The notes under the pieces were generated by a model. It saw only the letters and a list, made by a program, of their open reading frames with translations. It ran no database searches and had not been told where the DNA came from. Source: a virus. Taken from it: a stretch of DNA of 64,000 nucleotides. The position numbers were made by a program, and so were the translations under genes. The stretch lies in the IMG/VR virus record IMGVR_UViG_3300034691_000049, positions 8,810 to 72,809 of that record. One strand, given 5' to 3'. Shown here piece after piece: positions 5,677 to 31,765 of the stretch (positions are counted from its first letter, which is position 1; each line of letters opens with the position of its first letter).

Positions 5677-6342
5677 ATGAAATTGAACTACATCTTCAGC
5701 CAACTGGAAACCAGTGAGCTGAAACAACTGAACTGCATCGACCCGGTCACGGGAAAGATCAAAGCTGATCAGCACCAGGGCATTGTCGATGTGATGAACC
5801 AAGGGATGGTTGATCTGCATACGCGCTTTGATCTGAAGATCGGCAAGGTCACAGTGCCTATCGATTCGGCCGTCGAGCTGTACGACATGACCAAGTTCGA
5901 TCCCCAGGTGCGTGGCCGCTTTCTGCAACTGCATAAAGTGACCGATGAGCGGGGGTGTGATCTGCGCGTCAACGACTTCAGCCAACGTGGCCTCAACTTC
6001 CGCAGCCAGTTCATCTTTGAGGTGCCTGAGCATTTGCGTACGGTGCACCCGTTGCGCCAAGCCGTTATCTTGTACCGGTCACTGCCGACAAAGATCGGGG
6101 ACTGTTACGGTGATATCGACCCGGAAATGATCGAGGTTGAACTGCCGGTGGCCTATGTCTGGGCGCTGTGCCTGTATGTAGCCAGCCGCTTGCACACACC
6201 CGTCGGTTTGCAGGACGGAACCTACCGGGTGAATGCATTCCTTGGGCTGTTCCAGGCAGAATGCAAACGGTTGGAAGAAGTCGGTATGGATATGGACTTC
6301 CAGCAAGATGTAAACCATCTCCGAAAAGGGGGTTGGGCGTAA
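5677..6342 (+). CDS. N4 gp67-like virion structural (head-tail adaptor) protein
   Basis: Follows terminase; ALCLYVASR and C-terminal GGW typical of this position in N4-like phages. Confidence 0.75.
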   Translation: MKLNYIFSQLETSELKQLNCIDPVTGKIKADQHQGIVDVMNQGMVDLHTRFDLKIGKVTVPIDSAVELYDMTKFDPQVRGRFLQLHKVTDERGCDLRVNDFSQRGLNFRSQFIFEVPEHLRTVHPLRQAVILYRSLPTKIGDCYGDIDPEMIEVELPVAYVWALCLYVASRLHTPVGLQDGTYRVNAFLGLFQAECKRLEEVGMDMDFQQDVNHLRKGGWA

Positions 6343-17925: not shown

Positions 17926-20900
17926 ATGGCAAACGGCGACGAGAACAACGGTTTCGACCAACTGTTCCCTGCCGGCCTGCCTGCCGCAAAAACAGGGGGC
18001 TTCCGCCCCCTTTTTGATTTGTCTGCAAAGGCTGATCAAGTTGCGGCAGCTTCTGTTGAAAAGAAGCAAGCTCTCGTCAATAAGCTGGGTTACGACGTTG
18101 AAGATACCGTGGGCGCTGCGATTAACTTCGGTGCGTCCTTTGTGTCGGGGGCTAGCCGTTTGGCTGGCAACCTCACAACCCTGCCTATTGATGCGATCTC
18201 TGGTTTGGCCCAAGGCTCTGTTCCTGAAGAACAGGTTCAAGCATACAACCGACTGCAAACTGGCCAAGCGTCTGACGCTGACCGGGCATTGCTCGATCAA
18301 ACTGCACCGCTCGACGATGGCGTACCTCAAACTTACCTGCAACGCCTGCAAGGCACGCAAGGTCTGCAAGAAGTAGCGCAGAACGTCGATGATTTCTTCA
18401 ATATTGACAGCATCGTCGATCAAACCAACCGTGAGCGTCTGAGCCGGGATCTCAAAGAGAACACCGGTGATGGCGTCAACCGTCTGCGTTATGCGGCGGA
18501 AGCGTTCAAGATTGGTCACTATAAAGACGCGCTGACTGAAGGCTTCGGTGGTCTCGATTCGACCTTGAGCGAGGCGTTGAAAACTGCGGCAAGCAGTCCA
18601 GTTGCTACCGCCGAATACGTGGTAGAGAACATTCCACAACTGCTGGCTGCGGCCTACAGCGCCCCCGTGATGGCTGCATCGAACGCCGGTTACGGTTATG
18701 ACGCCTACCGTGAAGGTGTGCGTCAATACTTCGACCAGAACAACGGCCAACTGCCGAACGCCAATGAGCGTGCGAAGATGGGCCTGTTTGCTGCATCCGC
18801 GGCCCTGGCTGAACAAGTTGGTGACGCCTCCATGCTGCGCGGCTTCCGTGCGGCGGGTACTGGCACTAGCTCCAAGGCCATGGCTGCGGCTGCGGGAATT
18901 GTTGGTGCAATGACACGCGAAGGCGTGACTGAGGGCTATCAAACCTACGCCGAATCCAAAGCCAAACTGGAAGACGCATCTTTGGAAGAAATCGTCGAAG
19001 GCGCTACCATTGGTGCGCTTGTTGGCGGTAACTTCCACGGTGCTGTAGAACTGGGCCACCTTGGCGGTCCTAAACAAGATCCGGCCGCTCGTGCCGCATC
19101 TACTGAAGCATTTACCAATGCTGTTGAATCTGGTGACGTTTCGTCGCTGGCTGATGCAACCTCGCCGACTTACAACCCGGTTCGTGCTGTTGAAGCACTG
19201 CACCAGTTGAACTTGACGCCGGGTGCTGATGTTGACGCAAACCTTGCTAAAGCTGACGAAATTCAGCAAAACGTGACGGCTGATGTGTCGTCGATTCAGG
19301 CTCGCCTGGACAACACCTCCCCGGAGGCTGTTGCCCGTATTGGTGCCATTGTTGATCAGCTTGAGGCCGCTGGTGCAGACCAAGCCCAAATCGCTGAAAT
19401 GCGTGACATTCATGAGGCTGTATCGAGTTACACCCCAGCACAACGCAAAGCTGACCAAGCCCGCCTTACCGAACTGGAAAGCCAGTTGGGTCAGATTTAT
19501 TCGGCATCCGAGCGCTTGCGCGTAGATTCCAGCCCTGAGCAGGCTGAAGTCGAGGCCATCGCTACCCAAGCACAGACAGGCGATACCCAGGCGGCTGACC
19601 GTCTGCTAACCCTGACCATGATCAACCCTGATTCCGTGGACACCCAGATTGCCGAGTCTCTTGCACAGAGCGAAGCACTGTCTGAGCCGCAACGTACTGC
19701 CATGCGCCTTTTCAGCGAGGCTCAGGTGGCAACCAACGCCCTGAAAGGCCTTACTGGCGTACGTTCGGACATTGCCACTGGTGGCGACGGTTTCAAAGGT
19801 ATCTCGCAATATCGCAATGCAATCCGCATGGCCCTGGCCAATGGCAACGAAGACGCAGCCCGCTCGCAAGTCGATGGCATCCGCGCATTCGCTGACAGTC
19901 GTGTGTCGAAACTGAACGCTATCACCACTGCCTTCAAGCAAGTGAAGGGCACTGATAATTCGATCAACATCGTGCGTAATGAGCAAGGCGAATGGGGTCC
20001 AACTGACCTGAAGGGCTCTGCCCTGAAGAAAGCTGGTGGTCTGGTAGTTGACGCACGTTCTTTCAAGCTACGCGACGGTGTAGCTGCGGAAGCTGACGCT
20101 TTGACGAAAACTGCTGCTGCAATGGAAGCTCTGGTAAATGCTGCTCCATCTCCTGTTTCGGCGCCGGTTGTGCAACCGACTGCCGCAGTACAGGGTGAAG
20201 TTACCCCGGCAACTCCTGAAGTTGCAGCCACGCCGACTGTTGACCCTGCACCGGTAGCTCCGGTAGCAGACAAGGCACCTACGTCCGCTGTAACTGAAGA
20301 AGCTGCGGTCACACCAGAAGAAGCCCCGAAAGCGGCCGAGTCGGCACCTGCAAATGTAGGGCAGCTCACTGTAATCGGCGAGCGAACTGGTGCGGCGGTA
20401 ACTGCCGACAACTACCGTTCTGTCAATCTGGTTTCGGAGCTGTTTGAACAACAGGCCGGCAACGAGACTGATGCAAGCGTTCGCCCGCTGGTAGCTGTCA
20501 AAGACTTCGCTTCTGCGATCCGTGCAGGCGAAGTGCAGGCCAAGGACTTTATCGACCAGAAAGGTGACCTGACTGGCCCGCAAACCCAAGCCCTCAACGC
20601 TTTCTTTAACTTCGCGCAATTCTCTGCGCAAGCGATCCGCAACCAATTTAAGGTGACGGAATCTCGCGCTAAACGCCCGGACTTCTTCTACCGGGACATG
20701 GCGCAGTTCCTCCAGAACGCGGATGGGCAAATTGATGAGAACGTGGCGACTGCCGTCTCTTTTGGCATGTTCTCTTGGGCTAACGAAAACGCAACTCAAC
20801 TGCGTAACTCCGACGAGGCAATCAACGCTATTCTGTTGAACGAACTCGATTCTGAGATCTCGTCTGCTGCATACAAAGAACTGTCGCTGATCGGTACGCG

Positions 20901-23900
20901 TGAATCCGTGGTTGCCTCGCAACTCGGTGGCCGTATCGTTCAAGCGATGGGTCTGCGTGTCACTCAGCAAGGCACTGCCGCTGAACTGAGCAAGCTGGAA
21001 GCTTCTATCGGTACGCGAGCAATCGCTGCCATGGAGAAGCTGGGCATCGTTGAGCGCGTACAGCTCTCGGACGTGAAACTCCAAGCGCTGATGGACTCCA
21101 ATGAAAAAGGCGATCCACGCGTCAAGCACACCTTCGTCCGGGTTAAATCGGAAGAGGTGAACGGTAAGCGTGAAGCCAGCCCAATCACCAAGCGTATCCG
21201 CGAGCGCAACGTCGGCTCACAGTCCGTGGTGAACAAGCTGATGTCGGTGCAAGCTGCTGGCATTGAGCCGAGCTACACCCCGATCAAATTCGACCAGGCA
21301 TTCGCCAAACGCACCGGACAAGAAGTGCCTAAAGGCCTGGCCACGATCCTGAATAAAGAAGGCGCCAAACCCCACGTCGTTCGTCAGAACATGTGGCACG
21401 TCTGGGGCAAGTTGAGCAAGCAGGCGTTGTACGAGATGGGCGGCGTGGTCTCCACGACTGACAACCCTACTCACGTTGAGAACCTGGATTCCCGCCGTGC
21501 AAAGAATGACGGTCTGATTCAGCAAGTCGATAACCTCGACACCTTCATCAACGCAATGTCGGCCGATCCAAGCACCAACGGCCTGGAACAGGAAATGTTC
21601 TTCGGGCGCTCGGTCTGGAAGCCTCAACGTGTTGGTTTGACCGCAAACGTGGTGAACCCGCAGACTTCGAAGATCCACCGTCACATGCTGGCCATGAAAA
21701 GCTGGAATGCGTCCATTGACTTAGCTGATGCTGCGTCGATGAACAACTTCAAGCTGCGTGTGCTGGAAGCGTTCGGCAAGAAGACCGAAGCGACCAATAC
21801 CCCTGTTGTTCTGGCTGGCTACGATGCTGTTGTGTCGAACCCGGCAATTCAAGCAGGTGTTGACGCTTTGGTTGATGTGCTGCGCGATACTGGTGAAACC
21901 AATGAAAATGCAATCGTTGCTGCGGTAAAAGCTGGCGGCGAGAACTTCCATTCGTTCGACGCATTGGTAGCCCTGGCTGAGCAGCGCATTGCTGAACAAG
22001 ACGGTAAGCCTGCGTTCGAAACCAGCATGATGGGTGAAGTCGATGGTGTGACCAACGGTCCTATGCTGTCCCTGCTGATGCTGGGCGCAAAAGGCTTTGA
22101 AACCATGAACCAAGGTGGGTTCTTCCAACTGGATAGCCCGTTCACTCAGTTCAATGACTTCCACGGAGTTGATGGCAACCTCGACCTCTATGAGTCGAAC
22201 ATTGCTGGCGCTTTGAACCGTCTGCAAGGCCGTAACGTCAACATGCTGCAAGCAATGCAGACCATCACCGGTCAACTGCAAACTGCCGAAGGCAACGTGA
22301 CCTCTAAAGGCCGTAACATCATCAAGAAGCCGCTGACTGCGTTGATGTTCGGGTCCAACCCGAAAACTGCGGTAGAAGGCATGGCTGACGGCTTCGTTGA
22401 AGCGATCTACAGCCGTATCGAAGATGCTGCTGCAAAGCGTGATGATGCTGCCATTACTGAGCTGTTCACCGCGGTCAATACCTTGCTTCGTTCGCCAAAG
22501 GCTGCACTGGATGCGAAGATGGGTTATGCCCGGGCACTTGAGACCAAACTGAATGATCAGCAAAAAGCGGCCCTGAAGAAGTCGTTCTATGAGCTGCTGG
22601 GCAAGCCGACTGAAGATGCACTGGCTGACAACTACGCGACCTTCATTGCTCGCCGTAACGTGATCAACCAGACCGCACAACTCTCGTTTGACCTGTTCAA
22701 CGCAGTGCGTGACGGTGTAACCGAGTTCGTTGAGCAGTCGAGCCCTGAAGTTGCACGTAACAATAGTGGTGAGGCGATTCGCACCTTGACCAAAGAGCAA
22801 CTGGCACAAGTCCAGGAGCTGATGGGCGATATGGCGCCAATCCTGCAAACTGCTATGTCTCAGGCGGCAAAGCAACGCGAAGCTGGCATGTACATGGCGA
22901 AGTCGCAGCGTAAGCTGGATTCCTCGCTGCCGTACGAGCAAGAAGTCGCATTCGGTGAATTGGTTAACACCATCGCACCGGACGGCCAAATGCAGGGCAT
23001 CGGTTCGTCTCGTGTCTCGTCTTCGCGTACCGAAGACATTGACCCGGGCGTAATGCCGTTCATTACCTCGATTCACTCCAGCGACTCCAACATATCGCAC
23101 ACTGCTATTGGTGATAATGATGTGTTGAACGTGCACGATGCTCACGGCGTTGGTTTGAATGACATCGCCACAGCGGGCCAGCGGCTGAACAAAGCCACCT
23201 TTGATACCCTGCTGAACTACTCCTCGCCGACGGCTATGGCCAACATGCTGGATGAAGTGCTGGCCGGTGTGTCCAAAGTGATGCAGAACCCGGAACTGGC
23301 AGCACTGATTCAGCCAAAGCTGCGCGAGAAGATGATTCAGCGCACTGAGAAGAAGCGCGGCGGCATTGCTGAGCAACTGACCGCTATCCGTGAAACTGCC
23401 AAGCAGGCAGACACTGACAAGCTGAAAATGATGGCCGAGTTGAAGGCTATTGGTCAGTACGCCACAGAAGGTGGTTCGTACCTGGTGAATGACGCAGACC
23501 GTGAAGCTGCATCCAAGAAATTGGGTGAAGTGGGAAGTTCGTTCAACGAAGCTGCTGAATCGGTTGCTGAAATGCTGGACGTTGCCGCTGCTGTCGATCC
23601 TGCTGTGTATCAGCCAGGTCAAACAGCCGTGCTGTCCAACACCTCGGTTACCACACTGGCGCCGGCCACTTCCCTCAATACTCTGGCTTCGCTTGAGCAA
23701 ACTGAGGCGGTGGCCAAGGTCATTGATTCCATGGTTTCGGGTAACCGGACTTTGGCTGATGCTGTGCAGGTTCTGCCTGAGCATCAAGCTGCCGAAGTGA
23801 TCAACGCTGTCAATGGTGCATCTGAAGCGAAACTGTCGGTATGGGGCCAACTGGGCTCGCCGGTAGTGCAATCTGACGTGAATCTGGTGGAACTGCTGGA

Positions 23901-26900
23901 AGGTAACAACCTGACCGCACACAACCTGATCGACTCGATGGTTGCCTACGTACAAGACCCGTTCCAACGCACTGTGTTGCAGATGGCCAAGAAAGGTATC
24001 CCGGCCAACCTGCCAGTGAACTATGTCACCTCCGAGACCGGCCCTGAAGGCGCGTTCGGTGAAGGCGTGGATAAATCCCGTGGTTGGTATGCACAGCGTA
24101 ACAACACCGAAGCTTTGTTCGTGAAGTCGCCTGAATTCGTTGAATCGGGTATCACCCCGGAAATGCTGACCCACGAACTGGTTCATGCTGCCCTGGCGAA
24201 CCTCGTTGATGCCCATGAAGGTAAGAACACTGCCGTCGGCCGTGCTGTTGCTGATCTGGAGGCCATCCGCACCAAAGCTGCCGAGTTCATCGACAACAAC
24301 GGCGCACTGTCGGCCCAGTTCCGCAATGCCACTGCAAACGTGCATGAACTGCTGGCATGGGGCCTGACCAACAAGGCATTCCAACGTGACGTGCTGTCGC
24401 AGATTCAAGTTGAGCAGAAAAACGCCGGCTTGCTGTCTGGCCTGCGCAAGTTCATCAACAGCTTGACCACCATGCTGTTCGGCACCAATAAAGTGTCGGA
24501 AAACAATGGTATGGCCAACCTAGTGGCGAATGCTGCTGGCCTGTTCCAGGAAGCGGCCGCTGTACGCGACTCCCGCTCGGCAAGCACCCACAAGTACGAA
24601 GATGCTGTGGATCACATCAATGCCATGACTGCTGAGCAAGTGTTTGATGCACTGGCTTCGGTGTCGGGCACCCAAACTGACCCACGCCACACTGAGTACC
24701 TGAAGAACCTGCTGAACGAGACAGTTGACCCGATCTACGGCCCTTACGGTGCATTCAAAGAACAAGCAGCGGCTAACCGTGCATTCACCCCAATGGATGT
24801 ATTCCTGAAGGCTGTACAGACCGGCAAACTGCCATTCAGCTCGGAAGCGACCACCAATGCATTCATCCTGTCGCAACAGGAAGCGTTTGTACTGGAATCG
24901 GTTCAAGCTACTGTGGCTTTCGCCATGGACCAAAAGGAAACCTTGTTTGCACGCCAAGGGCTGGAAAACCTGTTCAAGGAAGCGCGAGCTACCCTGAAAC
25001 CGGCCAACTTCCACAAAGGTGTCTGGGCTACCGCAAGCCAGAATGAAAAGGATATCGCCCAAGCGAAGTTCGACTTCATCTTCCGTCCACAGGCTGCAAT
25101 CACCAGCAAAAACGCATACCTGTCGCGCTTTGCTGCACTGGGCCTGGCATCGGCTGAAGTCCGCAACGTAATGGCGTTCTCGACTGCGAACTTGGACGTT
25201 CCGTTGAAAAGCCTGCCATGGGCAAGCCGCCTGACTGAAATCTTCCGTCGGATCATGACTCGCCTGTCTTCGCTGGCGACTAAGACCACCCCGGGCCAAG
25301 CTGGCAACCAAGCGCTGAGCGCCCTGGTAGAGCAGATGGTGGACATCGAAGCCAAGCGTAAAGCTCGCTTCGGCCAAGACAAACTGGGATCCCTCGACCA
25401 AATCGAGACTGTCCTGTCGGCTGCCGGTGAAAAGGTTCGCGAGAAGGCGGATGCCTTCGGCCAATCGAAGTTCTTCCGTCAATCCCGTATCCCGGGTGTC
25501 CCATTCGTGGGTGCGGCGATCTCGACTGTTGCAGGCGACCGTCTGGATGCAGTACTGGACCGGATCACTGTGACCCGAGACCATTACTTCAAAACCCGTC
25601 AGGGCCTGATGATCGGTATCGTGAGCGAGTGGCGTGGTGTCTACGACTCCCGCCGTCTGGCTGCCGAACTGTTCAAAGGGGCCAAGGCCATCGAGCAAGA
25701 ACGCAAGGCTGTGATTGAAAACACTGCCAGCGCGGTCAACGGTGCCTTCGTAAACCAAGGCCAGGATCTGACCCAGGACCAGCGTGATGCGCTGACCAAA
25801 GTCTTCCTGCGTACCAACGCCCAAGCAATTGCTGCGGTGAAAGGTGTGTCGGGCCTGCGTGACCTGATGGAAGATCCGGCTCAGATGGCAGCGTACCGCG
25901 CCGATCTGGAAGCCCAGGTCAAAGCCATCACCGGCAACTCGCAGTACATGATCAGCCAGGCCAAAGACTTGGCTCACCACAAGGTAATTGGTGGCGCGAC
26001 CTCGGCCAACCTGATGCTGTCCACCGGCAACATTGCGGCGATGTACGGCACCAAAAAGGCTGGGCAGGATGCTCATCTTGTTGCTGGTTTGACGCCGTTG
26101 CTGGAGCAGTTGGTGGGTGTCTATGGCCTGCAATATTCGGGTGACGTGGATGTCAACAATGCCAAGCAGGTACTGCGCACCGAGATGAACCGTCAAGACG
26201 GTGGCAACGGTGTGGAATACATGCTGAAGCTGCACACAGGCCTCCAGGAGAAAGCCCGGAAGGATCTGTTCGCCGGTACTGAAGCACTACAACAAACCGG
26301 TTACGTTGCCGAGATTCACGACAACAAGATCGAAGTGTTGCTGGTCTCTCAGGCAGACGTGGCAGCTCACCTGCGGGCCGGTTACGAGGTAGGCACCCGT
26401 CTGCAAATGGACCCTAACGTCAAGGCACTGCAAGGCGGTTCCCGTGTCCTGATGACCCGTCGAGGCTCTGGCCAGAACGCATTGCTGACTGGCGCCCTGT
26501 CGTTTACCGGGATGAACTCGAAAGGTTCCAGCCCGATCACCGAAGCGCTGAACATGATGCAAGGTACGCAGACCACGTCTGCCGCCGTGCGCCAGCAGAT
26601 TGCGGCGGCCAAAGCCGGTGCGATTACCGACTTGTTCAACCGTGGCCCAAATTACGACCCACGGAATGCACAATCTGGGCACATGGCCCCCACCCTGGCA
26701 CCTGACGGCCGCATAGCTGACTACCGTCACCTGATGGTCGAACACAACCGCGATGTCCTACTGGACCGCGATAATTCGATGGATCAGGTGATGGGAGTCA
26801 TGGCCGGTCAGATTACTGACAAGGTGTCGTCTGCTTCGCAGAATGCTGATGTGGTTCGGTCGATGTACGACCAGTATCGTGCTGATTACACCTCGCGGCC

Positions 26901-28074
26901 GGCTTCGTACCTGCGCGTGGCTGCTGATAGCAATGATGCAACCTTGGCTGAGGCATATCGCCTGCTGCCGGAGAGCACCAAGAAAGAAATCAAGAAAGTC
27001 TGGAAAGAAGAGGCGATGTACGTCCCTGCTGACCAAATCGACCTGATTTTTGGCTATCGGAAATTTAGCCTGACCAACGCATTCGCTGCGCTACCGACTG
27101 ACCGTAACTTGTTCGAAAAGACCCTTGTTGGGATCACTTCGGCCATGTTCGGTGAGAAAGCTGCACTGCGGGTTGGTCAAGCTGAAGACATCATCCAGGC
27201 GCTGGTCAAAGAGATGAAAGACATCCTCGTTGTGAAGAACGTGCTGACCTTGGCAGGCAACATCATGTCCAACATGACTTTGCTGGCTTGGGAAGGTGTT
27301 CCACTGCAAAAGGCTGTCGCTTCGCACGCAATCGCAATCAAAAGTGCTCTCGATTACCGTAAGGATTCGAAACGCTTGATGCAGTTGCAGCAATCGGTTG
27401 ATATCGGTTATTACGCCGACGTTGCCGGTGCTGAAGCTGAAATGGTTGAGTTGCGGGATCGTTTGGCGCGTAACCCGATCAAACCGCTGATTGATGCCGG
27501 CCTTATGCCGACAATCGTAGAAGACGTTGAAGTTGACGATGATCGTTACACCTACAAGGCTCAACTGGAGCGTAAGGTAGAACGGTTCACTTCTAAGGTG
27601 CCAGCATGGATGCGTACTGTCGGTCGTCAGGTCTACATGACTCACGATACCGCCACGTACAAATTCTTGAGCCAATCTACTCAATTGTCTGACTTGGTTG
27701 CACGTTATGCGCTCTTTGAGCACGCAACTACTCGCAAGAAAGATCCTTTGAGCAAAGCTGACGCATTGCGTCTGGCTGAGGACAGTTTCGTAAACTACGA
27801 CCTGCCTTCGCACCGTACCCTGCAATATCTGAACGATATGGGTATTGTGATGTTCACCAAGTATTACTTGCGAATCCAGAAGGTGATTATGCGCTTGGTG
27901 CGGGAACGCCCAGCACGCGGGCTGATCTTGGCCACACTGGAACATTTCATCTCTGGTTTGCAGTCTGTGATGGATTCTAGCTGGGTTGACAAGATCGGTA
28001 ACAATCCACTGCAAGACAGCGCACTTGGTTACCTGGGTTCGTTGAAGGAGTTGCCTGCAATCAAACTTTTGTAA
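17926..28074 (+). CDS. virion-encapsidated RNA polymerase (N4 gp50-like), 3382 aa
   Basis: Size; motif A EVDGVTNG, motif B RNIIKKPLTALMFGS, motif C VHDA; no Cys seen. Confidence 0.95.
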   Translation: MANGDENNGFDQLFPAGLPAAKTGGFRPLFDLSAKADQVAAASVEKKQALVNKLGYDVEDTVGAAINFGASFVSGASRLAGNLTTLPIDAISGLAQGSVPEEQVQAYNRLQTGQASDADRALLDQTAPLDDGVPQTYLQRLQGTQGLQEVAQNVDDFFNIDSIVDQTNRERLSRDLKENTGDGVNRLRYAAEAFKIGHYKDALTEGFGGLDSTLSEALKTAASSPVATAEYVVENIPQLLAAAYSAPVMAASNAGYGYDAYREGVRQYFDQNNGQLPNANERAKMGLFAASAALAEQVGDASMLRGFRAAGTGTSSKAMAAAAGIVGAMTREGVTEGYQTYAESKAKLEDASLEEIVEGATIGALVGGNFHGAVELGHLGGPKQDPAARAASTEAFTNAVESGDVSSLADATSPTYNPVRAVEALHQLNLTPGADVDANLAKADEIQQNVTADVSSIQARLDNTSPEAVARIGAIVDQLEAAGADQAQIAEMRDIHEAVSSYTPAQRKADQARLTELESQLGQIYSASERLRVDSSPEQAEVEAIATQAQTGDTQAADRLLTLTMINPDSVDTQIAESLAQSEALSEPQRTAMRLFSEAQVATNALKGLTGVRSDIATGGDGFKGISQYRNAIRMALANGNEDAARSQVDGIRAFADSRVSKLNAITTAFKQVKGTDNSINIVRNEQGEWGPTDLKGSALKKAGGLVVDARSFKLRDGVAAEADALTKTAAAMEALVNAAPSPVSAPVVQPTAAVQGEVTPATPEVAATPTVDPAPVAPVADKAPTSAVTEEAAVTPEEAPKAAESAPANVGQLTVIGERTGAAVTADNYRSVNLVSELFEQQAGNETDASVRPLVAVKDFASAIRAGEVQAKDFIDQKGDLTGPQTQALNAFFNFAQFSAQAIRNQFKVTESRAKRPDFFYRDMAQFLQNADGQIDENVATAVSFGMFSWANENATQLRNSDEAINAILLNELDSEISSAAYKELSLIGTRESVVASQLGGRIVQAMGLRVTQQGTAAELSKLEASIGTRAIAAMEKLGIVERVQLSDVKLQALMDSNEKGDPRVKHTFVRVKSEEVNGKREASPITKRIRERNVGSQSVVNKLMSVQAAGIEPSYTPIKFDQAFAKRTGQEVPKGLATILNKEGAKPHVVRQNMWHVWGKLSKQALYEMGGVVSTTDNPTHVENLDSRRAKNDGLIQQVDNLDTFINAMSADPSTNGLEQEMFFGRSVWKPQRVGLTANVVNPQTSKIHRHMLAMKSWNASIDLADAASMNNFKLRVLEAFGKKTEATNTPVVLAGYDAVVSNPAIQAGVDALVDVLRDTGETNENAIVAAVKAGGENFHSFDALVALAEQRIAEQDGKPAFETSMMGEVDGVTNGPMLSLLMLGAKGFETMNQGGFFQLDSPFTQFNDFHGVDGNLDLYESNIAGALNRLQGRNVNMLQAMQTITGQLQTAEGNVTSKGRNIIKKPLTALMFGSNPKTAVEGMADGFVEAIYSRIEDAAAKRDDAAITELFTAVNTLLRSPKAALDAKMGYARALETKLNDQQKAALKKSFYELLGKPTEDALADNYATFIARRNVINQTAQLSFDLFNAVRDGVTEFVEQSSPEVARNNSGEAIRTLTKEQLAQVQELMGDMAPILQTAMSQAAKQREAGMYMAKSQRKLDSSLPYEQEVAFGELVNTIAPDGQMQGIGSSRVSSSRTEDIDPGVMPFITSIHSSDSNISHTAIGDNDVLNVHDAHGVGLNDIATAGQRLNKATFDTLLNYSSPTAMANMLDEVLAGVSKVMQNPELAALIQPKLREKMIQRTEKKRGGIAEQLTAIRETAKQADTDKLKMMAELKAIGQYATEGGSYLVNDADREAASKKLGEVGSSFNEAAESVAEMLDVAAAVDPAVYQPGQTAVLSNTSVTTLAPATSLNTLASLEQTEAVAKVIDSMVSGNRTLADAVQVLPEHQAAEVINAVNGASEAKLSVWGQLGSPVVQSDVNLVELLEGNNLTAHNLIDSMVAYVQDPFQRTVLQMAKKGIPANLPVNYVTSETGPEGAFGEGVDKSRGWYAQRNNTEALFVKSPEFVESGITPEMLTHELVHAALANLVDAHEGKNTAVGRAVADLEAIRTKAAEFIDNNGALSAQFRNATANVHELLAWGLTNKAFQRDVLSQIQVEQKNAGLLSGLRKFINSLTTMLFGTNKVSENNGMANLVANAAGLFQEAAAVRDSRSASTHKYEDAVDHINAMTAEQVFDALASVSGTQTDPRHTEYLKNLLNETVDPIYGPYGAFKEQAAANRAFTPMDVFLKAVQTGKLPFSSEATTNAFILSQQEAFVLESVQATVAFAMDQKETLFARQGLENLFKEARATLKPANFHKGVWATASQNEKDIAQAKFDFIFRPQAAITSKNAYLSRFAALGLASAEVRNVMAFSTANLDVPLKSLPWASRLTEIFRRIMTRLSSLATKTTPGQAGNQALSALVEQMVDIEAKRKARFGQDKLGSLDQIETVLSAAGEKVREKADAFGQSKFFRQSRIPGVPFVGAAISTVAGDRLDAVLDRITVTRDHYFKTRQGLMIGIVSEWRGVYDSRRLAAELFKGAKAIEQERKAVIENTASAVNGAFVNQGQDLTQDQRDALTKVFLRTNAQAIAAVKGVSGLRDLMEDPAQMAAYRADLEAQVKAITGNSQYMISQAKDLAHHKVIGGATSANLMLSTGNIAAMYGTKKAGQDAHLVAGLTPLLEQLVGVYGLQYSGDVDVNNAKQVLRTEMNRQDGGNGVEYMLKLHTGLQEKARKDLFAGTEALQQTGYVAEIHDNKIEVLLVSQADVAAHLRAGYEVGTRLQMDPNVKALQGGSRVLMTRRGSGQNALLTGALSFTGMNSKGSSPITEALNMMQGTQTTSAAVRQQIAAAKAGAITDLFNRGPNYDPRNAQSGHMAPTLAPDGRIADYRHLMVEHNRDVLLDRDNSMDQVMGVMAGQITDKVSSASQNADVVRSMYDQYRADYTSRPASYLRVAADSNDATLAEAYRLLPESTKKEIKKVWKEEAMYVPADQIDLIFGYRKFSLTNAFAALPTDRNLFEKTLVGITSAMFGEKAALRVGQAEDIIQALVKEMKDILVVKNVLTLAGNIMSNMTLLAWEGVPLQKAVASHAIAIKSALDYRKDSKRLMQLQQSVDIGYYADVAGAEAEMVELRDRLARNPIKPLIDAGLMPTIVEDVEVDDDRYTYKAQLERKVERFTSKVPAWMRTVGRQVYMTHDTATYKFLSQSTQLSDLVARYALFEHATTRKKDPLSKADALRLAEDSFVNYDLPSHRTLQYLNDMGIVMFTKYYLRIQKVIMRLVRERPARGLILATLEHFISGLQSVMDSSWVDKIGNNPLQDSALGYLGSLKELPAIKLL

Positions 28075-28079
28075 ATAGA

Positions 28080-28153
28080 TGGAACGCGGGGGGAGACGAA
28101 CCCCCGTTCTCTCGCTTGTTAGCAAGGTGTCCTACCATTAGACGACGCATCCC
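28080..28153 (-). tRNA. atypical tRNA-like gene (possible AAC anticodon; 8-bp acceptor; may be a pseudo-tRNA)
   Basis: GGGATGCG/CGCGTTCC-A acceptor, GTCT-AATGGTA-GGAC D arm, GGGGG-TTCGTCT-CCCCC T arm; irregular anticodon arm. Confidence 0.6.
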
Positions 28154-28161
28154 ATAACTGA

Positions 28162-28232
28162 TGGAGGTGGCAGGAATCGAACCTGCGTCAAACGCTTAGA
28201 AGGCGCCTGCTCTACCATTGAGCTACACCCCC
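28162..28232 (-). tRNA. tRNA with TCT (Arg) anticodon and an Ala-like acceptor stem
   Basis: Full cloverleaf GGGGGTG TA GCTC AATGGTA GAGC A GGCGC CTTCTAA GCGTT TGAC GCAGG TTCGATT CCTGC CACCTCC A; CCA not encoded. Confidence 0.9.
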
Positions 28233-28234
28233 AC

Positions 28235-28262
28235 AAAAAACCCCCTACTTTGGGGGTTTTTT
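28235..28262. terminator. bidirectional terminator-like hairpin
   Basis: AAAAAA-CCCCC-TACTTT-GGGGG-TTTTTT. Confidence 0.7.
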
Positions 28263-28454
28263 ATTGCATGACTGCCAGAACTCTTTGATTCCGGCCCAAA
28301 CCAGCACACCAATGAAGAAGATCACGCATAAGACGGCTAACAAGAAGCCAATGATCTTAATTGCGTAACCAAACACAATGAATGACGTGATTAGGGCAAG
28401 CAGCGCGCCAATGCTGAAGCAAATCTTCAACAGGCGCAGACCTGCCCGGATCAA
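28245..28454 (-). CDS. small membrane protein (2 TM)
   Basis: 69 aa with two long hydrophobic segments; TTG start overlapping the upstream stop. Confidence 0.65.
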   Translation of the reverse strand: MIRAGLRLLKICFSIGALLALITSFIVFGYAIKIIGFLLAVLCVIFFIGVLVWAGIKEFWQSCNKKPPK

Positions 28455-28789
28455 TGCTTAGTCGGGCCAATTACAACAACCCGGCCAATAGCCGCACCAT
28501 TGATGTACATGATGCCATCGTCGCTGATGGTGAAGCCCTGGGGCAGTTTAGAGCCAGATTTCTTTCCCGGTTCAGCTTTTTCAGGCTCAGCAGGGGTTTC
28601 GGCAGGTTCGGTGTTATACCTGCCGGACGGCACATCGCTCTTGACGCTACTGAACAGCTCAGCGGCGGCAACAGCCAATGTCTTCGATTCATTGTGCTGG
28701 TTGATGTCGTAGAGGTCTTTTGCTGCACTCGCGAGCAAACTGGCTGCTTGTGCCGCTGCAAGCAGATCACGGTTACATTGTTCACACAT
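28451..28789 (-). CDS. hypothetical protein (MCEQCNRDLL..., 112 aa)
   Basis: AAGGA RBS before ATG at 28789. Confidence 0.7.
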   Translation of the reverse strand: MCEQCNRDLLAAAQAASLLASAAKDLYDINQHNESKTLAVAAAELFSSVKSDVPSGRYNTEPAETPAEPEKAEPGKKSGSKLPQGFTISDDGIMYINGAAIGRVVVIGPTKH

Positions 28790-28810
28790 AATGCATTCCT
28801 TCTGTTGGTG

Positions 28811-29745
28811 GGTGTTCTGGAAGTACATCTACCGCGGCTTCCCATGGCAACACTCACTACTGAGTGGCAGATGTACCACCAGAACACCATCTAAGTGCAA
28901 ACCTCTCTTACGAGTCAGCTTGCGGAGATAATGTTCCGGGCGAGTAACCATCTCACAACTTTATAGGTTATTAGCCACAAACTTGCTTGTTCGTGTACAA
29001 CTGACTTCGGCTGAAGTTATGTTGAGATTTAAATTCATTATTCCCCTGCCCGTCAGGTCAGAGGTACGCTAATACGGCTAACTTGCACGCTCGCGTAACC
29101 ACATTTCTGTTTTTACCAAATTCAGCACTTACTCGTACTGTTAGGTACAGCGGCGGATCTTTTTAATACCCTAGGGGGTATTGGGGAACACACCGGCGTA
29201 ACAGACCACTTCCAGTTACAAATGGTCGTTATCCCTCCCGGTATGCTCCCCAATACCACCGTAAACGGCGATATTGGGTTCGATCTTATGTTCGAACAGA
29301 CATACCGACTCTATGCTCGTCGGGTCAGCAGCCCCTGCCCGGGACAAGGGTTCAAATGAGATTGGTGATGTCGGTAGTCACGGTCGGTCATCACAAGCGC
29401 GTGAACGCTCAGCTTTACCTTCAATCTCAACCTGGGTGGCAGCATGATCGGTGCTACACCTGATCAGCTTCAGCTCTCATCCCACAGTTAGGATGACTTT
29501 CGCACAGCGCTATGAGGCTGATGCCTTGCTGCCAAATTAGGTGGCACTTCAGCTTTGTTTCTGTACCTGCCGTCGCGACGGCGTTTCTGATGTCCAGAAG
29601 AAGTGCCATAAATTTCGGCTCGTTGTTTTCCAAACAGTTTTCGCGGTAACAAACGTCGTTCTGTTCGCCAACTTCAGTTGGTTTTGCTGTTCAGTACCGA
29701 TCACAGCATTATCCGATCTGTATTTACAGGAGCACGAATGACACA
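28811..29745 (-). ncRNA. candidate large structured ncRNA or array of structured RNA domains
   Basis: About 8 tandem domains closed by 6-20 bp helices; mismatches resolve to G-U on the - strand; no convincing ORF. Confidence 0.65.
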
Positions 29746-29762
29746 GGCCCCTCCTGCCTTTT

Positions 29763-30233
29763 TTATACCGGTATATGGTCCGGGGTCGCATTAACACCGA
29801 TCTCGGGAGGCCGAGACGATGTTGCTACGATCTTGCTTCGCATTTCACGGCCACGGGCTGAGCCCTTATCCCATTCCATGCGATTGAAGTCGTCACCTTC
29901 AGGGAAGGCATTGACCAGTTGTTCTGGGTCCGGGACAGTCAGTGCCTGTTCCAAACCAAGGTTGTAAGCTGCCGTCGTGACCGACGGTACTGGGTCCGGC
30001 GAAGTGCCAGTCAGTTCGTACTGGGTCATGTACCCCACATAGGAGACATTGATCAGCACAGCCGCTTCGCCTAATTTGCGCTGCTCTTTCGCAGCATTCA
30101 AGATCGGGATCGACAGACTGCGCTTGTCAGACCAGACGTATGCACTGGCCGGCATGTAACTACCGACCTGTGCGACTGACCATACCGCAAGAAACCAGTG
30201 ACGCTTGATGCTGCTGGGGTCTGCCTTGGCCAT
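29763..30233 (-). CDS. hypothetical protein (156 aa)
   Basis: GAGGT RBS; within the middle-gene run. Confidence 0.75.
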   Translation of the reverse strand: MAKADPSSIKRHWFLAVWSVAQVGSYMPASAYVWSDKRSLSIPILNAAKEQRKLGEAAVLINVSYVGYMTQYELTGTSPDPVPSVTTAAYNLGLEQALTVPDPEQLVNAFPEGDDFNRMEWDKGSARGREMRSKIVATSSRPPEIGVNATPDHIPV

Positions 30234-30276
30234 GTTCTACCTCTGGTTTGCCCTGGTTGCCCAGGGCGTTGCCTGA

Positions 30277-30654
30277 TCAGTCGAACAGGTTGTCGTCTTC
30301 GCCAGCGGCAGCAGGGACTTCAGCCAGGGCTTCAGTCGTGGTAGTCACAGGGACTTCCGCCGCTGCTTCGGCAACCTGCGCAGCTTCGCTTACAGCCCCG
30401 GCTGGTGCAGTGTCCGGGACTTCGGCAAGCGGTGCAGAGGTGGTCACGGTTTCGGTCGCGTCGGATTTCGACTTTGGGGCAACCGGCGCTTCCGGCTTCG
30501 GGTCGGTGTCCAGGGTGCAGATCAGCTCTTTGGTGCCGCGCTTGAAGCTGAAATCGACGGAAGCTTTGCCCGGTTCGAAGGCAGTCATGCCTTTATTGCG
30601 CAGGTCGTTGATCAGGGCAGTTTCGAGGTCAGCGTGGGTCAGAATCAGTTGCAT
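30277..30654 (-). CDS. conserved N4-like protein with Ala/Pro/Glu-rich tail ending DDNLFD
   Basis: AAGGA RBS; MQLILTHADLETAL start. Confidence 0.8.
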   Translation of the reverse strand: MQLILTHADLETALINDLRNKGMTAFEPGKASVDFSFKRGTKELICTLDTDPKPEAPVAPKSKSDATETVTTSAPLAEVPDTAPAGAVSEAAQVAEAAAEVPVTTTTEALAEVPAAAGEDDNLFD

Positions 30655-31214
30655 AATGCGGTTCCTTTATGGAATTGAATGAGTTGTTTGTACTGGTCTG
30701 TGAGCAGACCCGCATAAATCGCGCCGATGGCGTCAGCCATGTGTTCGGCGTCACCGAGCAGGATTTCTCCTTTCGGTTTCCGGGGCCAGGGGGCTTCCGG
30801 GTGTTTTGCCACAGCCCAAGCGATCATTTGCTTTTTGGTTGCCGTTCGGCTGCCAACAGTCGCAAGTTTGACCTCATTGGGCGTTACTTCAAAAAATTGT
30901 GATTTGGCGCGTAGACCGCCCAAAACCCCAATGCAGATGCCAGAACAGAGCGAGGCGCGGGCGCTTTGACTACCTTGCGGAATCTCGGCGAAGTTTAAGC
31001 TCGCTGCCATGAAAGGAGCCACGCCCTCATATAACTGGTTTGCCGTGCGCAGATCTTGTGAATTCTGCCGCACCTGCTTTCCTTCGAGCGATTCAGACCG
31101 CACAACCCGGAGAGTCTTGATGGTCACGATACCTGTGTCGGTATCTATCATACCGCCAGCTATGCCCCAATTCCGTGAGGAAGGGTCATGGCCGGCGACA
31201 GATAACCGAGCCAT
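30645..31214 (-). CDS. RuvC-like Holliday junction resolvase
   Basis: GHDPSSRNWG, EIP, TPNEVK, ATKKQMI and HMADAIG match the RuvC catalytic pattern. Confidence 0.8.
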   Translation of the reverse strand: MARLSVAGHDPSSRNWGIAGGMIDTDTGIVTIKTLRVVRSESLEGKQVRQNSQDLRTANQLYEGVAPFMAASLNFAEIPQGSQSARASLCSGICIGVLGGLRAKSQFFEVTPNEVKLATVGSRTATKKQMIAWAVAKHPEAPWPRKPKGEILLGDAEHMADAIGAIYAGLLTDQYKQLIQFHKGTALCN

Positions 31215-31765
31215 TACACACCAGCGCGAGCAAGGCGGCGTTGGAGCACTTCGACGTAGGACTTCATCAGCCCGTGTTGTTCGCGAAGGTCAGCAACCTC
31301 GTCATCTGACAGATTCAAGCTGGAAAGTTCGCCGCCGTCCAGTTTTGCTAGGAATTCAGACAAACCCATCAGACGAGCGGCAACCTGGAACATCTCGGTG
31401 ATAACGCGCTGCACATGGTCAGGAAGTTCGCGCTGTTCCTGAGTCAGTGGGCGATTACCCCGGTGGATGTCCTCAGCCAGCATGAAGCCGGCCAGCGGCC
31501 ACAGTTGGTCACGTGCATCGCGCATTGCCAGTTGTTTGCCCAGTGCTTCGTCGTAATTCTCCGGGCATACACTGCCCAGGTTCTTACCGACGACGGTGAG
31601 GCCGTTGTGCAAGGTCAGGATGCAAAGCAGGATCGAAGGTTCGATCTTGATCAGCTCCGTGGACTTGATCATGGCGTCCAAAGCAGCCGGTGTAACACGC
31701 GGGGCATTGGTGAGGCCTTTGGCTTGAATCTGGGACTCAAGCGCTTGTTCGGCGGGTGAAGACAT
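31214..31765 (-). CDS. fusion of N4 gp49/Sf6 gp66-family domain and helical-hairpin (crAss001_48-like) domain
   Basis: CILTLHNGLTVVG...CPENYDEALGKQLA...LWPLAGF, then HVQRVITE...LSEFL...QHGLMKSYVEVLQRRL. Confidence 0.8.
   Translation of the reverse strand: MSSPAEQALESQIQAKGLTNAPRVTPAALDAMIKSTELIKIEPSILLCILTLHNGLTVVGKNLGSVCPENYDEALGKQLAMRDARDQLWPLAGFMLAEDIHRGNRPLTQEQRELPDHVQRVITEMFQVAARLMGLSEFLAKLDGGELSSLNLSDDEVADLREQHGLMKSYVEVLQRRLARAGV

What the first reader, a model, noticed from the sequence alone, without database searches (positions are those of the whole stretch)
28811..29745. About 940-nt tract of tandem multibranched RNA domains: candidate new large phage ncRNA or ncRNA array
Seen: almost the whole gap between two CDSs folds into discrete domains separated by short linkers. 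They are 28811-28888 (GGTGTTCTGG..GTACATCT / AGATGTAC..CCAGAACACC), 28895-29088, 29177-29257 (20-bp helix), about 29300-29350, 29357-29429, 29437-29534, 29542-29608 and about 29613-29739. Apparent A-C mismatches on + become G-U pairs on - (e.g. GGAGCAUACCGG/CCGGUGUGUUCC, UCAUCCUA/UGGGAUGA), pointing to selection on a - strand RNA. Known: large ornate phage ncRNAs such as GOLLD and ROOL often lie near tRNA genes. Inference: an RNA system expressed at the end of the middle operon; I do not recognise its family.
Basis: partly seen in the sequence, partly recalled or inferred. Interest (0 to 1): 0.9.

Follow-up and report, generated by a model that had tools for sequence, protein, structure and literature searches.

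The report
Mosaic tRNA-like small-RNA island, N4-like phage
The 0.93-kb gene-free gap of this N4-like Pseudomonas-type phage is a real, conserved string of separately folding non-coding RNA modules, sitting where coliphage N4 keeps its tRNA genes and built partly like them, rather than one giant RNA; what the modules do is not known.

Summary
Window 28811-29745 is non-coding, folds far better than shuffles, and its helices are kept by compensatory changes in related phages. G-U pairs point to the minus strand, the strand of the flanking genes. No Rfam family matches.

It is not one giant RNA. It is a mosaic of about 12 modules that relatives share piecemeal, with swaps exactly at module borders.

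The locus is syntenic with three others:
- the LUZ7 orf69-orf70 small-RNA hotspot, which is published;
- a PEV2 "very strongly transcriptionally expressed" mini-ORF;
- the four-tRNA cluster of coliphage N4.

Modules B and C, and several cassettes in relatives, are closed by 7-8-bp acceptor-like helices followed by R-CC-N and an AAUU spacer. N4's real tRNAs are joined the same way. Some relatives' cassettes also carry a T-arm. None scores as a tRNA.

Long covarying stems display interchangeable conserved "payload" motifs. The K-L element next to the downstream gene has a conserved alternative pairing.

Best reading: a phage stable-RNA locus whose non-decoding, tRNA-scaffold-like RNAs are cut out by host tRNA-processing enzymes. 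Processing and function are inferred.

This scan has found the same kind of island before, on other N4-like phage DNA.

The parts
29614..29738 (-). Module A: 125-nt multibranched domain directly after the stop of the 156-aa gene. It is about 90% identical in L003, L009 and L010, where the flanking CDS is 75-79% identical.
   Evidence: RNAalifold on 6 sequences gives 42 pairs, 6 with changes on both sides. z = -1.98.
29543..29607 (-). Module B: 65-nt unit closed by the 8-bp helix GGCACUUC/GAAGUGCC, preceded by AUUUAU and followed by ACCU-AAUUU. It carries payload P2 (29553-29597).
   Evidence: The closing stem and inner hairpin covary among 4 phages. P2 recurs in other holders.
29430..29542 (-). 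Module C: four-way junction closed by the 7-bp helix GGCAGCA/UGCUGCC (29527-29533 with 29438-29444), followed by ACCC. Found only in the window and L002.
   Evidence: z = -3.09.
29357..29429 (-). Module D: 73-nt three-arm unit closed by the 8-bp helix UGAGAUUG/CAAUCUCA. It is 97-100% identical in L002, L003 and L004, and has 1 mismatch in 86 in a contig from an RNA library.
   Evidence: z = -2.36. Too little variation for covariation.
29303..29350 (-). Two small hairpins, E (29332-29350) and F (29303-29330). The F stem CCGAC/GUCGG is replaced by CCAGA/UCUGG in L009 and L010.
29270..29304 (-). 35-nt block identical in 8 related contigs. It can form a compact pseudoknot (UAUGU:ACAUA with GUUCGA:UCGAAC) and contains the complement of a tRNA T-arm (GAUCGAACC).
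   Evidence: No variation, so the fold is untested.
29165..29275 (-). H1-H2-H3 unit: two short hairpins (29252-29275 and 29165-29182) flank a long stem (29183-29251) that displays payload P1. The same segments can instead form one 20-bp helix.
   Evidence: H2 has 7 different closing-stem versions in 10 phages, all paired, around 3 payload types. H1 and H3 covary. z for 29157-29301 = -6.32.
29043..29156 (-). Modules H, I and J: small hairpins. One (29123-29140) has a conserved GAGUAA-type hexaloop and a fully covarying stem.
   Evidence: z = -3.37 for 29099-29156.
28889..29034 (-). Module K: conserved multi-hairpin core with invariant unpaired runs and invariant G-U pairs. It is also present in a second genus (98PfluR60PP) and in L026/L035.
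   Evidence: (helices 1-4).
28811..28888 (-). Module L: 78-nt long hairpin with a conserved UGGGAAGC loop, ending 8 nt before the Shine-Dalgarno sequence (28796-28802) of the downstream gene. Its basal stem resembles a stem found at the same locus in N4, LUZ7 and PEV2.
   Evidence: z = -6.77..
28879..28939 (-). Candidate switch: the K segment CCGGAACAUUAUC (28927-28939) can pair over 13 bp with the 5' arm of L (28879-28891). This excludes the basal stem of L.
   Evidence: 94.0% paired in 9 distinct sequences, against 34-65% in slid controls. One pair changed on both sides (G-C to A-U, 3 sequences, one event), and that change is also compensated in the L stem.
28081..28233 (-). Two tRNA genes of the same strand, downstream of two small ORFs and a terminator: tRNA-Arg(TCT) at 28160-28233 and an irregular second tRNA at 28081-28152.

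Best explanation
The gap is the stable-RNA locus of this N4-like (Schitoviridae) phage. It is an array of about a dozen independently folding, non-decoding RNA modules, read from the minus strand together with or just after the middle (replication) genes.

The 5' half (modules A-D) contains tandem units of roughly tRNA size (65-113 nt). B and C are built like units of a tRNA cluster: leader ending in U, a 7-8-bp closing helix starting with G, a purine, CC-N, an AAUU spacer, then the next unit. D is closed by an 8-bp helix but lacks this junction (its first stem base is U and no R-CC follows). The 3' half, from E to L (E, F, the invariant core, H1-H2-H3, H, I, J, K, L), is conserved in all close relatives.

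Long covarying stems act as holders for a few conserved payload motifs that are swapped between holders in different phages.

Inferred mechanism: the precursor is cut into small stable RNAs by host tRNA- and rRNA-maturation enzymes. RNase P would cut at U|G-stem-RCC, RNase E at the AU-rich linkers, and possibly RNase III at the long stems. The acceptor-like helices would serve as processing and stabilising scaffolds. The payloads would then bind a host or phage factor. The mosaic, accessory-like distribution suggests host takeover or counter-defence.

The last element (K-L) may in addition switch between two folds next to the ribosome-binding site of the downstream gene.

Shown: non-coding; conserved structure; strand; mosaicism; synteny; junction grammar. 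Inferred: transcription in this phage, processing enzymes, trans-acting function.
For: Structure and selection:
- z = -5.4 for the whole tract.
- K+L has 16 pairs with double changes, against 1-2 in slid controls, and holds when the more distant L026 is added.
- H2 has 7 different, fully paired closing stems around 3 payload types in 10 phages.
- The stems of B covary; A partly.

Strand: about 50 G-U cells against 2 A-C cells in K+L. The minus-strand z is better for G, H, K and D.

Non-coding:
- No codon periodicity.
- 0 of 7 ORFs from within the gap (5 window, 2 relatives) hit PHROGs. The other 2 of the 9 proteins sent are an extra gene that relatives carry upstream of the gap, and both hit phrog_632.

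Array, not one RNA:
- Modules are present or absent independently in 9 relatives.
- Contigs in 4 runs replace segments at 29431/2-29610 and 29186-29248, which are module borders.

Locus identity. The order gp46-like RuvC, 1-2 genes, gap, small genes, convergent vRNAP is shared with five phages:
- phCDa: gap of about 1 kb.
- 98PfluR60PP: 903 nt.
- LUZ7: 398 nt.
- PEV2.
- N4: 1519 nt holding tRNA-Asn, Ser, Thr and Pro.
In L026 tRNA-Arg lies inside the gap, upstream of K-L, with leader UCUUUAU|GGGG.

Junction grammar:
- N4 tRNAs run ...R-CCA-AAUU-next.
- Window B runs ...GAAGUGCC-A-CCU-AAUUU-GGCAGCA, which is the start of C.
- The same holds for 5 further junctions in relatives (L002 x and B, L005 q, L009 t, phCDa t).

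Stems of 7 bp or more followed by RCC: 7 in the window against 2.0 in shuffles (1 of 200 as high); L002 8 against 2.3 (0 of 200); L003 8 against 2.0 (0 of 200).

T-arm plus acceptor strand plus GCC(A) occurs in the phCDa and L009/L010 cassettes.

Expression by analogy:
[quoted passage not shown] It gives RNAs under 250 nt, one of them without a TSS and so probably processed (PMC9163698, passages).
- PEV2 gp67.1 is annotated 'very strongly transcriptionally expressed'.
- An 8683-nt contig of a relative in a metatranscriptome library spans the upstream gene, module A and module D.
Against: - No RNA data exist for this phage. The RNA-library contig can contain DNA and gives no strand.
- No module scores as a tRNA, even at E<=10 in a 286-nt search. 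ARAGORN finds none at default settings. 'tRNA-like' therefore rests on the closing helix, the RCC tail, the spacer, and T-arms seen only in relatives.
- The stem+RCC excess is not significant in 7 of the 10 regions tested: 6 of the 9 close relatives and LUZ7. D, G, K and A lack the feature.
- Neither LUZ7, PEV2 nor N4 shows sequence similarity to the window's gap by BLAST or by models R1 and R2, so the link to the LUZ7 RNAs is positional.
- No promoter-like site was found in the gap.
- Folding z-scores of A, B, C and K are only about -2 to -3, and for A, B, C and L they are as good on the plus strand.
- No partner or target is known.
Confidence: 0.6

Rival explanations
1. Purely cis-acting RNA: the tract is the long 3' UTR of the 156-aa gene and the 5' leader of the downstream gene. 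Its hairpins would serve only as processing and stability signals, and K-L would be a riboswitch-like or protein-controlled leader for the gene starting at 28789. No trans-acting small RNAs would be made.
For: - L ends 8 nt before the Shine-Dalgarno sequence in all 10 close relatives and in L026.
- LUZ7 and PEV2 have a similar long hairpin just before the next gene.
- There is a conserved alternative pairing between K and L.
- K has invariant unpaired runs, as aptamers do.
Against: - The genes behind the K-L or L-like hairpin are not homologous between genera.
- In N4 the matching stem lies about 415 nt from the next gene.
- Neither fold hides the Shine-Dalgarno sequence (my reading).
- Modules A-D and the payload swapping are not explained.
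- The LUZ7 locus gives discrete small RNAs.
Confidence: 0.18
2. One single large ornate non-coding RNA of about 0.9 kb with a global architecture, in the manner of GOLLD or ROOL.
For: - The whole tract is dense with helices and the global MFE draws some long-range pairs.
- A follow-up in this scan read a roughly 0.55-kb conserved fold in a related phage (note e1-6035562; unchecked).
Against: - Modules are gained, lost and exchanged independently.
- The only long-range pairs RNAalifold proposed show no double changes.
- No Rfam match, GOLLD and ROOL included.
Confidence: 0.06
3. DNA-level elements: single-stranded DNA hairpins used as promoters by the phage RNA polymerases, as in N4 early and LUZ7 early and middle promoters, or a replication or packaging site.
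For: - N4-like phages use DNA hairpin promoters. LUZ7 middle promoters are GC-rich hairpins with a stem of 6 bp or more and a 3-4-nt loop (PMC9163698, passages).
- The tract has small GC hairpins (E, J, the P2 hairpin).
- A one-strand DNA hairpin could also show strand asymmetry.
Against: - The covarying helices are 10-23 bp long, with large multibranched interiors and many invariant G-U pairs, unlike hairpins of 5-7 bp with a 3-nt loop.
- No iteron-like direct repeats were found.
- No copies occur elsewhere in the window.
Confidence: 0.05
4. Decaying remnants of a former tRNA gene cluster, without present function.
For: - The locus is syntenic with the N4 tRNA cluster.
- It keeps acceptor-like helices, RCC tails and, in relatives, T-arms.
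- No unit scores as a tRNA.
Against: - Compensatory changes keep the helices.
- Module A and the 35-nt core are better conserved than the neighbouring genes.
- Module D is 97-100% identical across phages.
Confidence: 0.05
5. RNA anti-CRISPR: the P2 payload (a hairpin flanked by CAGAAAC ... ACAGAAAC) mimics a CRISPR repeat.
For: Only a resemblance, recalled from memory, to repeats that end in ...GAAAC. The hairpin covaries.
Against: The P2 pattern has 0 matches in one genome for each of 185,579 species, and only 5 in IMG/VR, all from this phage group. No array-like repetition is present.
Confidence: 0.03

Closest known systems
LUZ7 orf69-orf70 intergenic small-RNA hotspot (sRNA1-3; Putzeys et al. 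2022, PMC9163698; passages read)
   Same: - Same place in the genome map: after the gp46-like gene and two small genes, before small genes and the convergent vRNAP.
- Non-coding.
- A long hairpin with a related basal stem sits just before the next gene.
   Different: - 398 nt against about 930 nt.
- No sequence similarity by BLAST or by my covariance models.
- The paper describes no structure, covariation or tRNA-like features in the passages I read.
- Its coordinates are in supplements that I could not open.
tRNA gene cluster of coliphage N4 between gp47 and gp48
   Same: - Syntenic locus on the same strand as the middle genes.
- Same junction grammar: purine-CC-N, AAUU, next unit.
- N4 also holds non-tRNA hairpin cassettes there, one with the stem AGUGCUCUGG/CCAGAGCACU, close to that of module L.
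   Different: - N4's four units are canonical tRNAs (50-78 bits); the window's units score nothing.
- Tails are CCU or CCC, not CCA.
- There are no T-arms in the window's gap.
Stable RNAs C and D (species 1 and 2) in the phage T4 tRNA region. Recalled from memory and named in scan note e1-348453; no paper read.
   Same: Non-tRNA stable RNAs encoded among phage tRNA genes and matured with them. Function unknown.
   Different: - No sequence or structure comparison was made here.
- T4 has two RNAs, not a mosaic array with swappable payloads.
GOLLD, ROOL and other large ornate RNAs (Rfam)
   Different: - No Rfam match at gathering score or at E<=10.
- Modular and mosaic rather than one conserved architecture.
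Engineered 'tRNA scaffold' RNAs, in which a payload is inserted in a tRNA body for stable expression in bacteria. Recalled; no paper read.
   Same: A payload is displayed on an acceptor-type helix that would recruit tRNA-maturation enzymes and protect the ends.
   Different: - This is a natural element.
- The scaffolds here lack the D-arm and T-arm core.
- Processing is untested.

Membership tests
Any Rfam 15 family (GOLLD, ROOL, tmRNA, Y RNA-like, 6S, riboswitches, ribozymes) | Covariance-model score at or near the family's gathering threshold | tested here: not met
   - Whole window at gathering score: only the two tRNAs at 28081-28232.
- 28000-30000 at E<=10: in the gap only microRNA-type and DUF1874 matches of 16-18 bits, all to long hairpins.
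- 29340-29625 at E<=10: nothing.
- 8 relatives at E<=1: nothing in their gaps.
tRNA | Cloverleaf with conserved D- and T-arm nucleotides and a 7-nt anticodon loop (RF00005 / ARAGORN) | tested here: not met
   - No RF00005 hit in the gap at E<=10.
- ARAGORN at default settings: none.
- No T-arm motif in the window's gap.
tRNA | 7-bp acceptor helix followed by discriminator and CCA; short spacers between units of a cluster | tested here: inconclusive
   - B has an 8-bp helix followed by A-CCU-AAUUU; C has a 7-bp helix followed by A-CCC.
- N4 tRNAs: R-CCA-AAUU.
- D, G, K and L do not fit. Excess over shuffles is seen in 3 of 10 regions.
LUZ7 sRNA1-3 locus | Same genomic position | tested here: met
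   Gene order compared.
LUZ7 sRNA1-3 locus | Sequence or structure homology of the RNAs | tested here: not met
   No BLAST hit. R1 and R2 have no hit in L020. Only the basal stem of one hairpin is alike.
LUZ7 sRNA1-3 locus | Abundant small transcripts late in infection | not testable with these tools
   No RNA data for this phage. One RNA-library contig of a relative covers modules A and D.
N4-type hairpin promoters | Stem of 5-7 bp (LUZ7 middle promoters: 6 bp or more) with a 3-4-nt loop upstream of a TSS | tested here: not met
   The conserved helices are 10-23 bp with interiors of 40-70 nt. Definition taken from PMC9163698 and PMC3715699, passages.
Riboswitch-like leader (for K-L only) | Conserved aptamer-like core plus mutually exclusive helices next to an expression signal | tested here: inconclusive
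   There is a conserved core and an alternative 13-bp helix that is 94% paired with one compensated event. Neither fold covers the Shine-Dalgarno sequence, there is no terminator tail, and no ligand is known.
Protein-coding gene(s) | Codon periodicity of substitutions, conserved ORF, family match | tested here: not met
   - Periodicity p = 0.80 and 0.56 in the gap, against <= 0.0024 in the flanking genes; 1-2-nt indels.
- The longest ORFs are 82 aa or shorter.
- No PHROG hit for any of the 7 ORFs from within the gaps.

The most novel reading that the evidence does not exclude
Across Schitoviridae, the site that holds tRNA genes in N4 has become a shuffling ground. There, tRNA-derived scaffolds (an acceptor-type helix plus an RCC tail, sometimes a T-arm) would present a small set of exchangeable, non-decoding RNA payloads. 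The host's own RNase P and CCA machinery would mature these into stable decoy or regulator RNAs. That would make them a natural 'tRNA-scaffold' display system used for host takeover or for countering tRNA-directed defences. The terminal K-L element would act as a conformational switch.
Probability: 0.3. Interest if true: 0.8.

Novelty: new variant of a known kind. Interest (0 to 1): 0.62.

Why it matters
N4-like phages are a model for phage transcription and are used in Pseudomonas phage therapy. Even so, the abundant small RNAs seen in LUZ7 have no known structure, family or function.

This window and its relatives supply several things for that locus:
- covariation-backed folds;
- a defined strand;
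- a modular anatomy;
- a link to the N4 tRNA cluster.

Together these give a testable maturation route (RNase P, RNase E and RNase III) and a cultured system to test it in: phCDa on Pseudomonas fluorescens.

If the units are tRNA-scaffolded decoys or regulators, they would be a new class of phage accessory RNA, and natural parts for expressing stable RNAs.

At least four RNA motifs here are absent from Rfam: K-L, H1-H2-H3, P2 and the 35-nt core.

Tried and rejected
Searches and tests that led nowhere or were set aside:
- Lowered ARAGORN thresholds and intron mode gave scattered calls in coding and non-coding DNA alike. I treated them as noise.
- A metagenome scan with the 156-aa protein found no relative: 74 pattern hits, 0 confirmed.
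- The K-motif pattern in metagenome contigs returned 120 or more stretches (80 listed as loci). Model R2 confirmed 1 of those 80, L113 at 20.9 bits. Of the 13 new viral contigs, R2 confirmed 3: L026, L035 and, in part, L036.
- Model R1 (L alone) found nothing outside the close relatives.
- The CRISPR-repeat idea for P2 found nothing: 0 genome hits.
- The tmRNA idea for the phCDa tRNA-like end has no Rfam support.
- The promoter scan found 0 sites in 27900-30400. The terminator-like hits in the gap are on the plus strand only.
- Stem GTGCTCTGG...CCAGAGCAC: 21 IMG/VR contigs match, but only 8 are N4-like by flanks or an adjacent giant ORF. The other 13 look like chance or unrelated.
- AAGCUGA occurs 4 times in the gap, out of 18 on this strand in the 64-kb window. 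It is enriched but unexplained.
- Read laying: the parts of the stretch without cover in run X8 are not evidence of anything.
- The alignment that search_with_rna_model made (A6) mixed in reverse-strand hits of the palindromic hairpin, so I did not use it.

Literature:
- Searches for prior description of these RNAs were. Only PMC9163698 treats the locus.
- I read passages of PMC9163698 and PMC3715699. All other papers I saw as search listings only.
- Supplements of PMC9163698, which hold the TSS, TTS and sRNA coordinates, are closed and may bear on strand and ends.
- The following are recalled from memory and come from no call: T4 RNAs C and D; the tRNA-scaffold method; the ACCC end of 4.5S RNA; RNase P recognition of RCC; RNA anti-CRISPRs.
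Full report
**What the window is**

The window comes from a 72,809-bp IMG/VR virus record. It carries a 3382-aa virion RNA polymerase gene on the plus strand (17926-28074). Its closest named relative is Pseudomonas phage phCDa (Schitoviridae, Shizishanvirus).

On the minus strand the gene order is as follows:
- Sak4-like protein, SSB, gp49-family protein, RuvC-like/gp46-like protein;
- ORFs of 125 aa and 156 aa, the latter with its stop at 29763;
- the gap;
- a 112-aa ORF, a 69-aa ORF and a bidirectional terminator (28235-28262);
- two tRNAs;
- then the convergent polymerase gene.

The alignment of ten phages puts the true start of the downstream ORF at the ATG at 28789, behind GAAGGAA. The non-coding tract is therefore about 28790-29762.

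Yes.
- The whole tract folds with z = -5.42 (minus) and -5.72 (plus); 0 of 20 shuffles are as good.
- Taken singly, only G (29157-29301, z -6.32) and L (28811-28888, z -6.77) are outstanding. A, B, C, D and K lie between -2 and -3.1.

The decisive evidence is comparative. Nine related contigs were fetched: L002-L005, L007-L010 and phCDa (L006 ends before the gap).
- For K+L, 60 pairs are 97.2% paired, with 16 pairs changed on both sides. The six slid controls give 1-2 such pairs and 37-46% paired.
- The fold survives the addition of the more distant L026.
- Model R2 also finds the K core in a second genus, 98PfluR60PP, at E = 2.6e-11.
- The long H2 stem exists in seven different, fully paired versions.
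- The stems of B covary. A has 6 of 42 pairs with double changes.

The tract is not coding.
- Substitutions against L002 and L003 show no third-position excess (p = 0.80 and 0.56), unlike both flanking genes (p <= 0.0024).
- Indels are 1-2 nt long.
- None of the 7 ORFs taken from within the gaps (5 window, 2 relatives) hits PHROGs.

**Strand**

In K+L I count about 50 G-U cells and 2 A-C cells. H1 and H2 add about 10 further G-U cells against 1 A-C, by my reading.

**One RNA or many?**

Many.
- BLAST of the gap against relatives gives a patchwork:
  - A is in 5 of 9 relatives at 89-94% identity, above the 75-79% of the adjacent CDS in the same phages.
  - C is only in L002.
  - D is in 3 relatives, at 97-100%.
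  - The 35-nt core is identical in 8 contigs.
  - K-L is in all.
- Contigs of four sequencing runs replace segments at 29431/2-29610 and at 29186-29248, which are module borders.
- The interior of H2 comes in three types:
  - P1: window and L002.
  - P2: L003, L008, L009 and L010.
  - P3: L004, L005, L007 and phCDa.
- P2 is also the content of the window's module B, inside a different closing stem. P3-like sequence sits in yet another holder in L003 and in L026.
- No long-range helix with covariation was seen.

**What the locus corresponds to**

The same map position is a 398-nt gap in LUZ7. Putzeys et al. describe that gap as extensively transcribed late in infection. It gives several RNAs under 250 nt (sRNA1-3), one of them without a TSS and probably processed (PMC9163698, passages).

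In PEV2 the position holds a 162-nt "ORF" annotated as very strongly transcriptionally expressed. In 98PfluR60PP it is a 903-nt gap.

In coliphage N4 it is a 1519-nt gap with four canonical tRNA genes (Asn, Ser, Thr, Pro). N4 also has further T-arm-bearing and hairpin cassettes there that are not tRNAs. In L026 a tRNA-Arg lies inside the gap, upstream of K-L.

So this is the family's stable-RNA locus.

**tRNA-cluster grammar**

N4's tRNAs are joined as acceptor strand, purine, CCA, AAUU, next unit. The window reads ...GAAGUGCC-A-CCU-AAUUU-GGCAGCA... between B and C, and ...UGCUGCC-A-CCC after C.

Relatives show the same pattern for five further junctions. Leaders such as AUUUAU|GG equal the leader of the real tRNA-Arg of L026, UCUUUAU|GG.

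Helices of 7 bp or more followed by RCC, against shuffles:
- window: 7 against 2.0 (1 of 200 shuffles as high);
- L002: 8 against 2.3 (0 of 200);
- L003: 8 against 2.0 (0 of 200);
- not significant in the other seven regions tested (six close relatives and LUZ7).

Cassettes in phCDa and in L009/L010 carry a perfect T-arm, then an acceptor strand, then GCC(A).

Yet nothing in the gap scores as a tRNA, even at E<=10 in a 286-nt search. These are non-decoding, tRNA-scaffold-like units, not tRNAs.

From established knowledge (recalled, not tested here), a helix with U at -1, G at +1 and a 3' RCC is what bacterial RNase P recognises. AU-rich single-stranded linkers are RNase E sites, and helices of 20 bp or more are RNase III substrates. 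That is the basis of the proposed maturation route, which remains an inference.

**K-L**

L has a basal stem GGUGUUCUGG/CCAGAACACC. This is close to AGUGCUCUGG/CCAGAGCACU, found at the same locus in N4, LUZ7, PEV2/LIT1-type and related contigs: 8 of the 21 IMG/VR contigs with that stem are N4-like.

The conserved "unpaired" run of K, CCGGAACAUUAUC (28927-28939), can pair over 13 bp with the 5' arm of L (28879-28891).
- This helix is 94% paired in 9 distinct sequences, against 34-65% in slid controls.
- Its one changed pair (G-C to A-U in the L009/L010/phCDa branch) is compensated in both alternative helices.

That suggests a switch, but it rests on a single event, and neither fold hides the ribosome-binding site. 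The genes downstream of L-like hairpins are unrelated between genera. This argues against a gene-specific regulator.

**Expression**

No data exist for this phage. A relative's 8683-nt contig in a metatranscriptome library (depth 42.8) runs from the upstream gene through module A (5 differences in 116) and module D (1 in 86). This is a weak hint only: DNA can be present in such libraries, and contigs give no strand.

**Comparison and novelty**

My literature searches found only the LUZ7 paper on this locus, and no description of folds, families or tRNA-like grammar.

The scan itself has met the same kind of island before on other N4-like phage DNA (notes e1-5902165, e1-5902156, e1-6008154, e1-6030068, e1-6035562, e1-6035574). 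Those follow-ups read it, as I do, as a mosaic of small modules with the LUZ7 hotspot as closest known. One also reported tRNA look-alikes, and one a conserved stem with a swappable loop.

I had reached the array, stem+ACC and LUZ7 points before opening those notes (stated), and I tested the shared claims on this genome. I rate it a new variant of a known kind: phage small-RNA and tRNA-region stable RNAs.

**Verdict**

The finding is real and interesting, but it is an array, not a giant RNA, and its function is open. Confidence in the structural and evolutionary statements is high. Confidence in the tRNA-type maturation and the decoy or regulator role is moderate to low.

Noticed in passing
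window 28081-28152 (-): A second tRNA-like gene scores only 37 bits. ARAGORN at lowered threshold calls a 4-letter anticodon (aaca), which implies an enlarged anticodon loop. It directly follows tRNA-Arg(TCT). Neither window tRNA encodes CCA.
   Followed up: partly
window 29270-29304 (-): The 35-nt invariant core contains GAUCGAACC, the exact complement of a tRNA T-arm (GGUUCGAUC). In phCDa it can pair over 10 bp with the T-arm of the upstream tRNA-like cassette. It can also form an H-type pseudoknot. No variation exists to test either fold.
   Followed up: partly
window 29555, 29470, 29415, 28921 (-): AAGCUGA occurs four times in the gap, in modules B, C, D and K, out of 18 occurrences on this strand in 64 kb. 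In K it is invariant and part of a helix with conserved G-U pairs.
   Followed up: partly
L024 (phage N4) 6254-6317, 6319-6431, 6519-6602, 6611-6711: Beside its four tRNAs, the N4 gp47-gp48 gap holds unannotated T-arm-bearing and hairpin cassettes that Rfam does not call as tRNA. One is a 64-nt unit ending in CCA.
   Followed up: partly
L025 (PEV2) 6112-6273: The 162-nt GTG-start 'gp67.1', annotated as very strongly transcriptionally expressed, lies in the syntenic gap and is more likely a small RNA than a gene.
   Followed up: no
L004 4447-4893, L009 4380-4904 and equivalents in L003, L005, L007, L010: Relatives carry an extra gene between the 156-aa gene and the island (PHROG 632, labelled 'tellurite resistance'). 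The window lacks it, so the site is an accessory-gene hotspot.
   Followed up: no
L009 1-705: Partial match to the group I intron model (36.3 bits, E = 1.3e-05, cut at the locus end), upstream in the replication module of a relative.
   Followed up: no
window 31214-31765 (-): A 183-aa protein joins an N4 gp49/Sf6 gp66 domain (PF13876) to a crAss001_48-related domain (PF21825).
   Followed up: no
window 28235-28262: A perfect bidirectional terminator (A6 C5 ... G5 T6) lies between the small ORFs and the tRNAs. On the minus strand the tRNAs would therefore need readthrough to be made.
   Followed up: no
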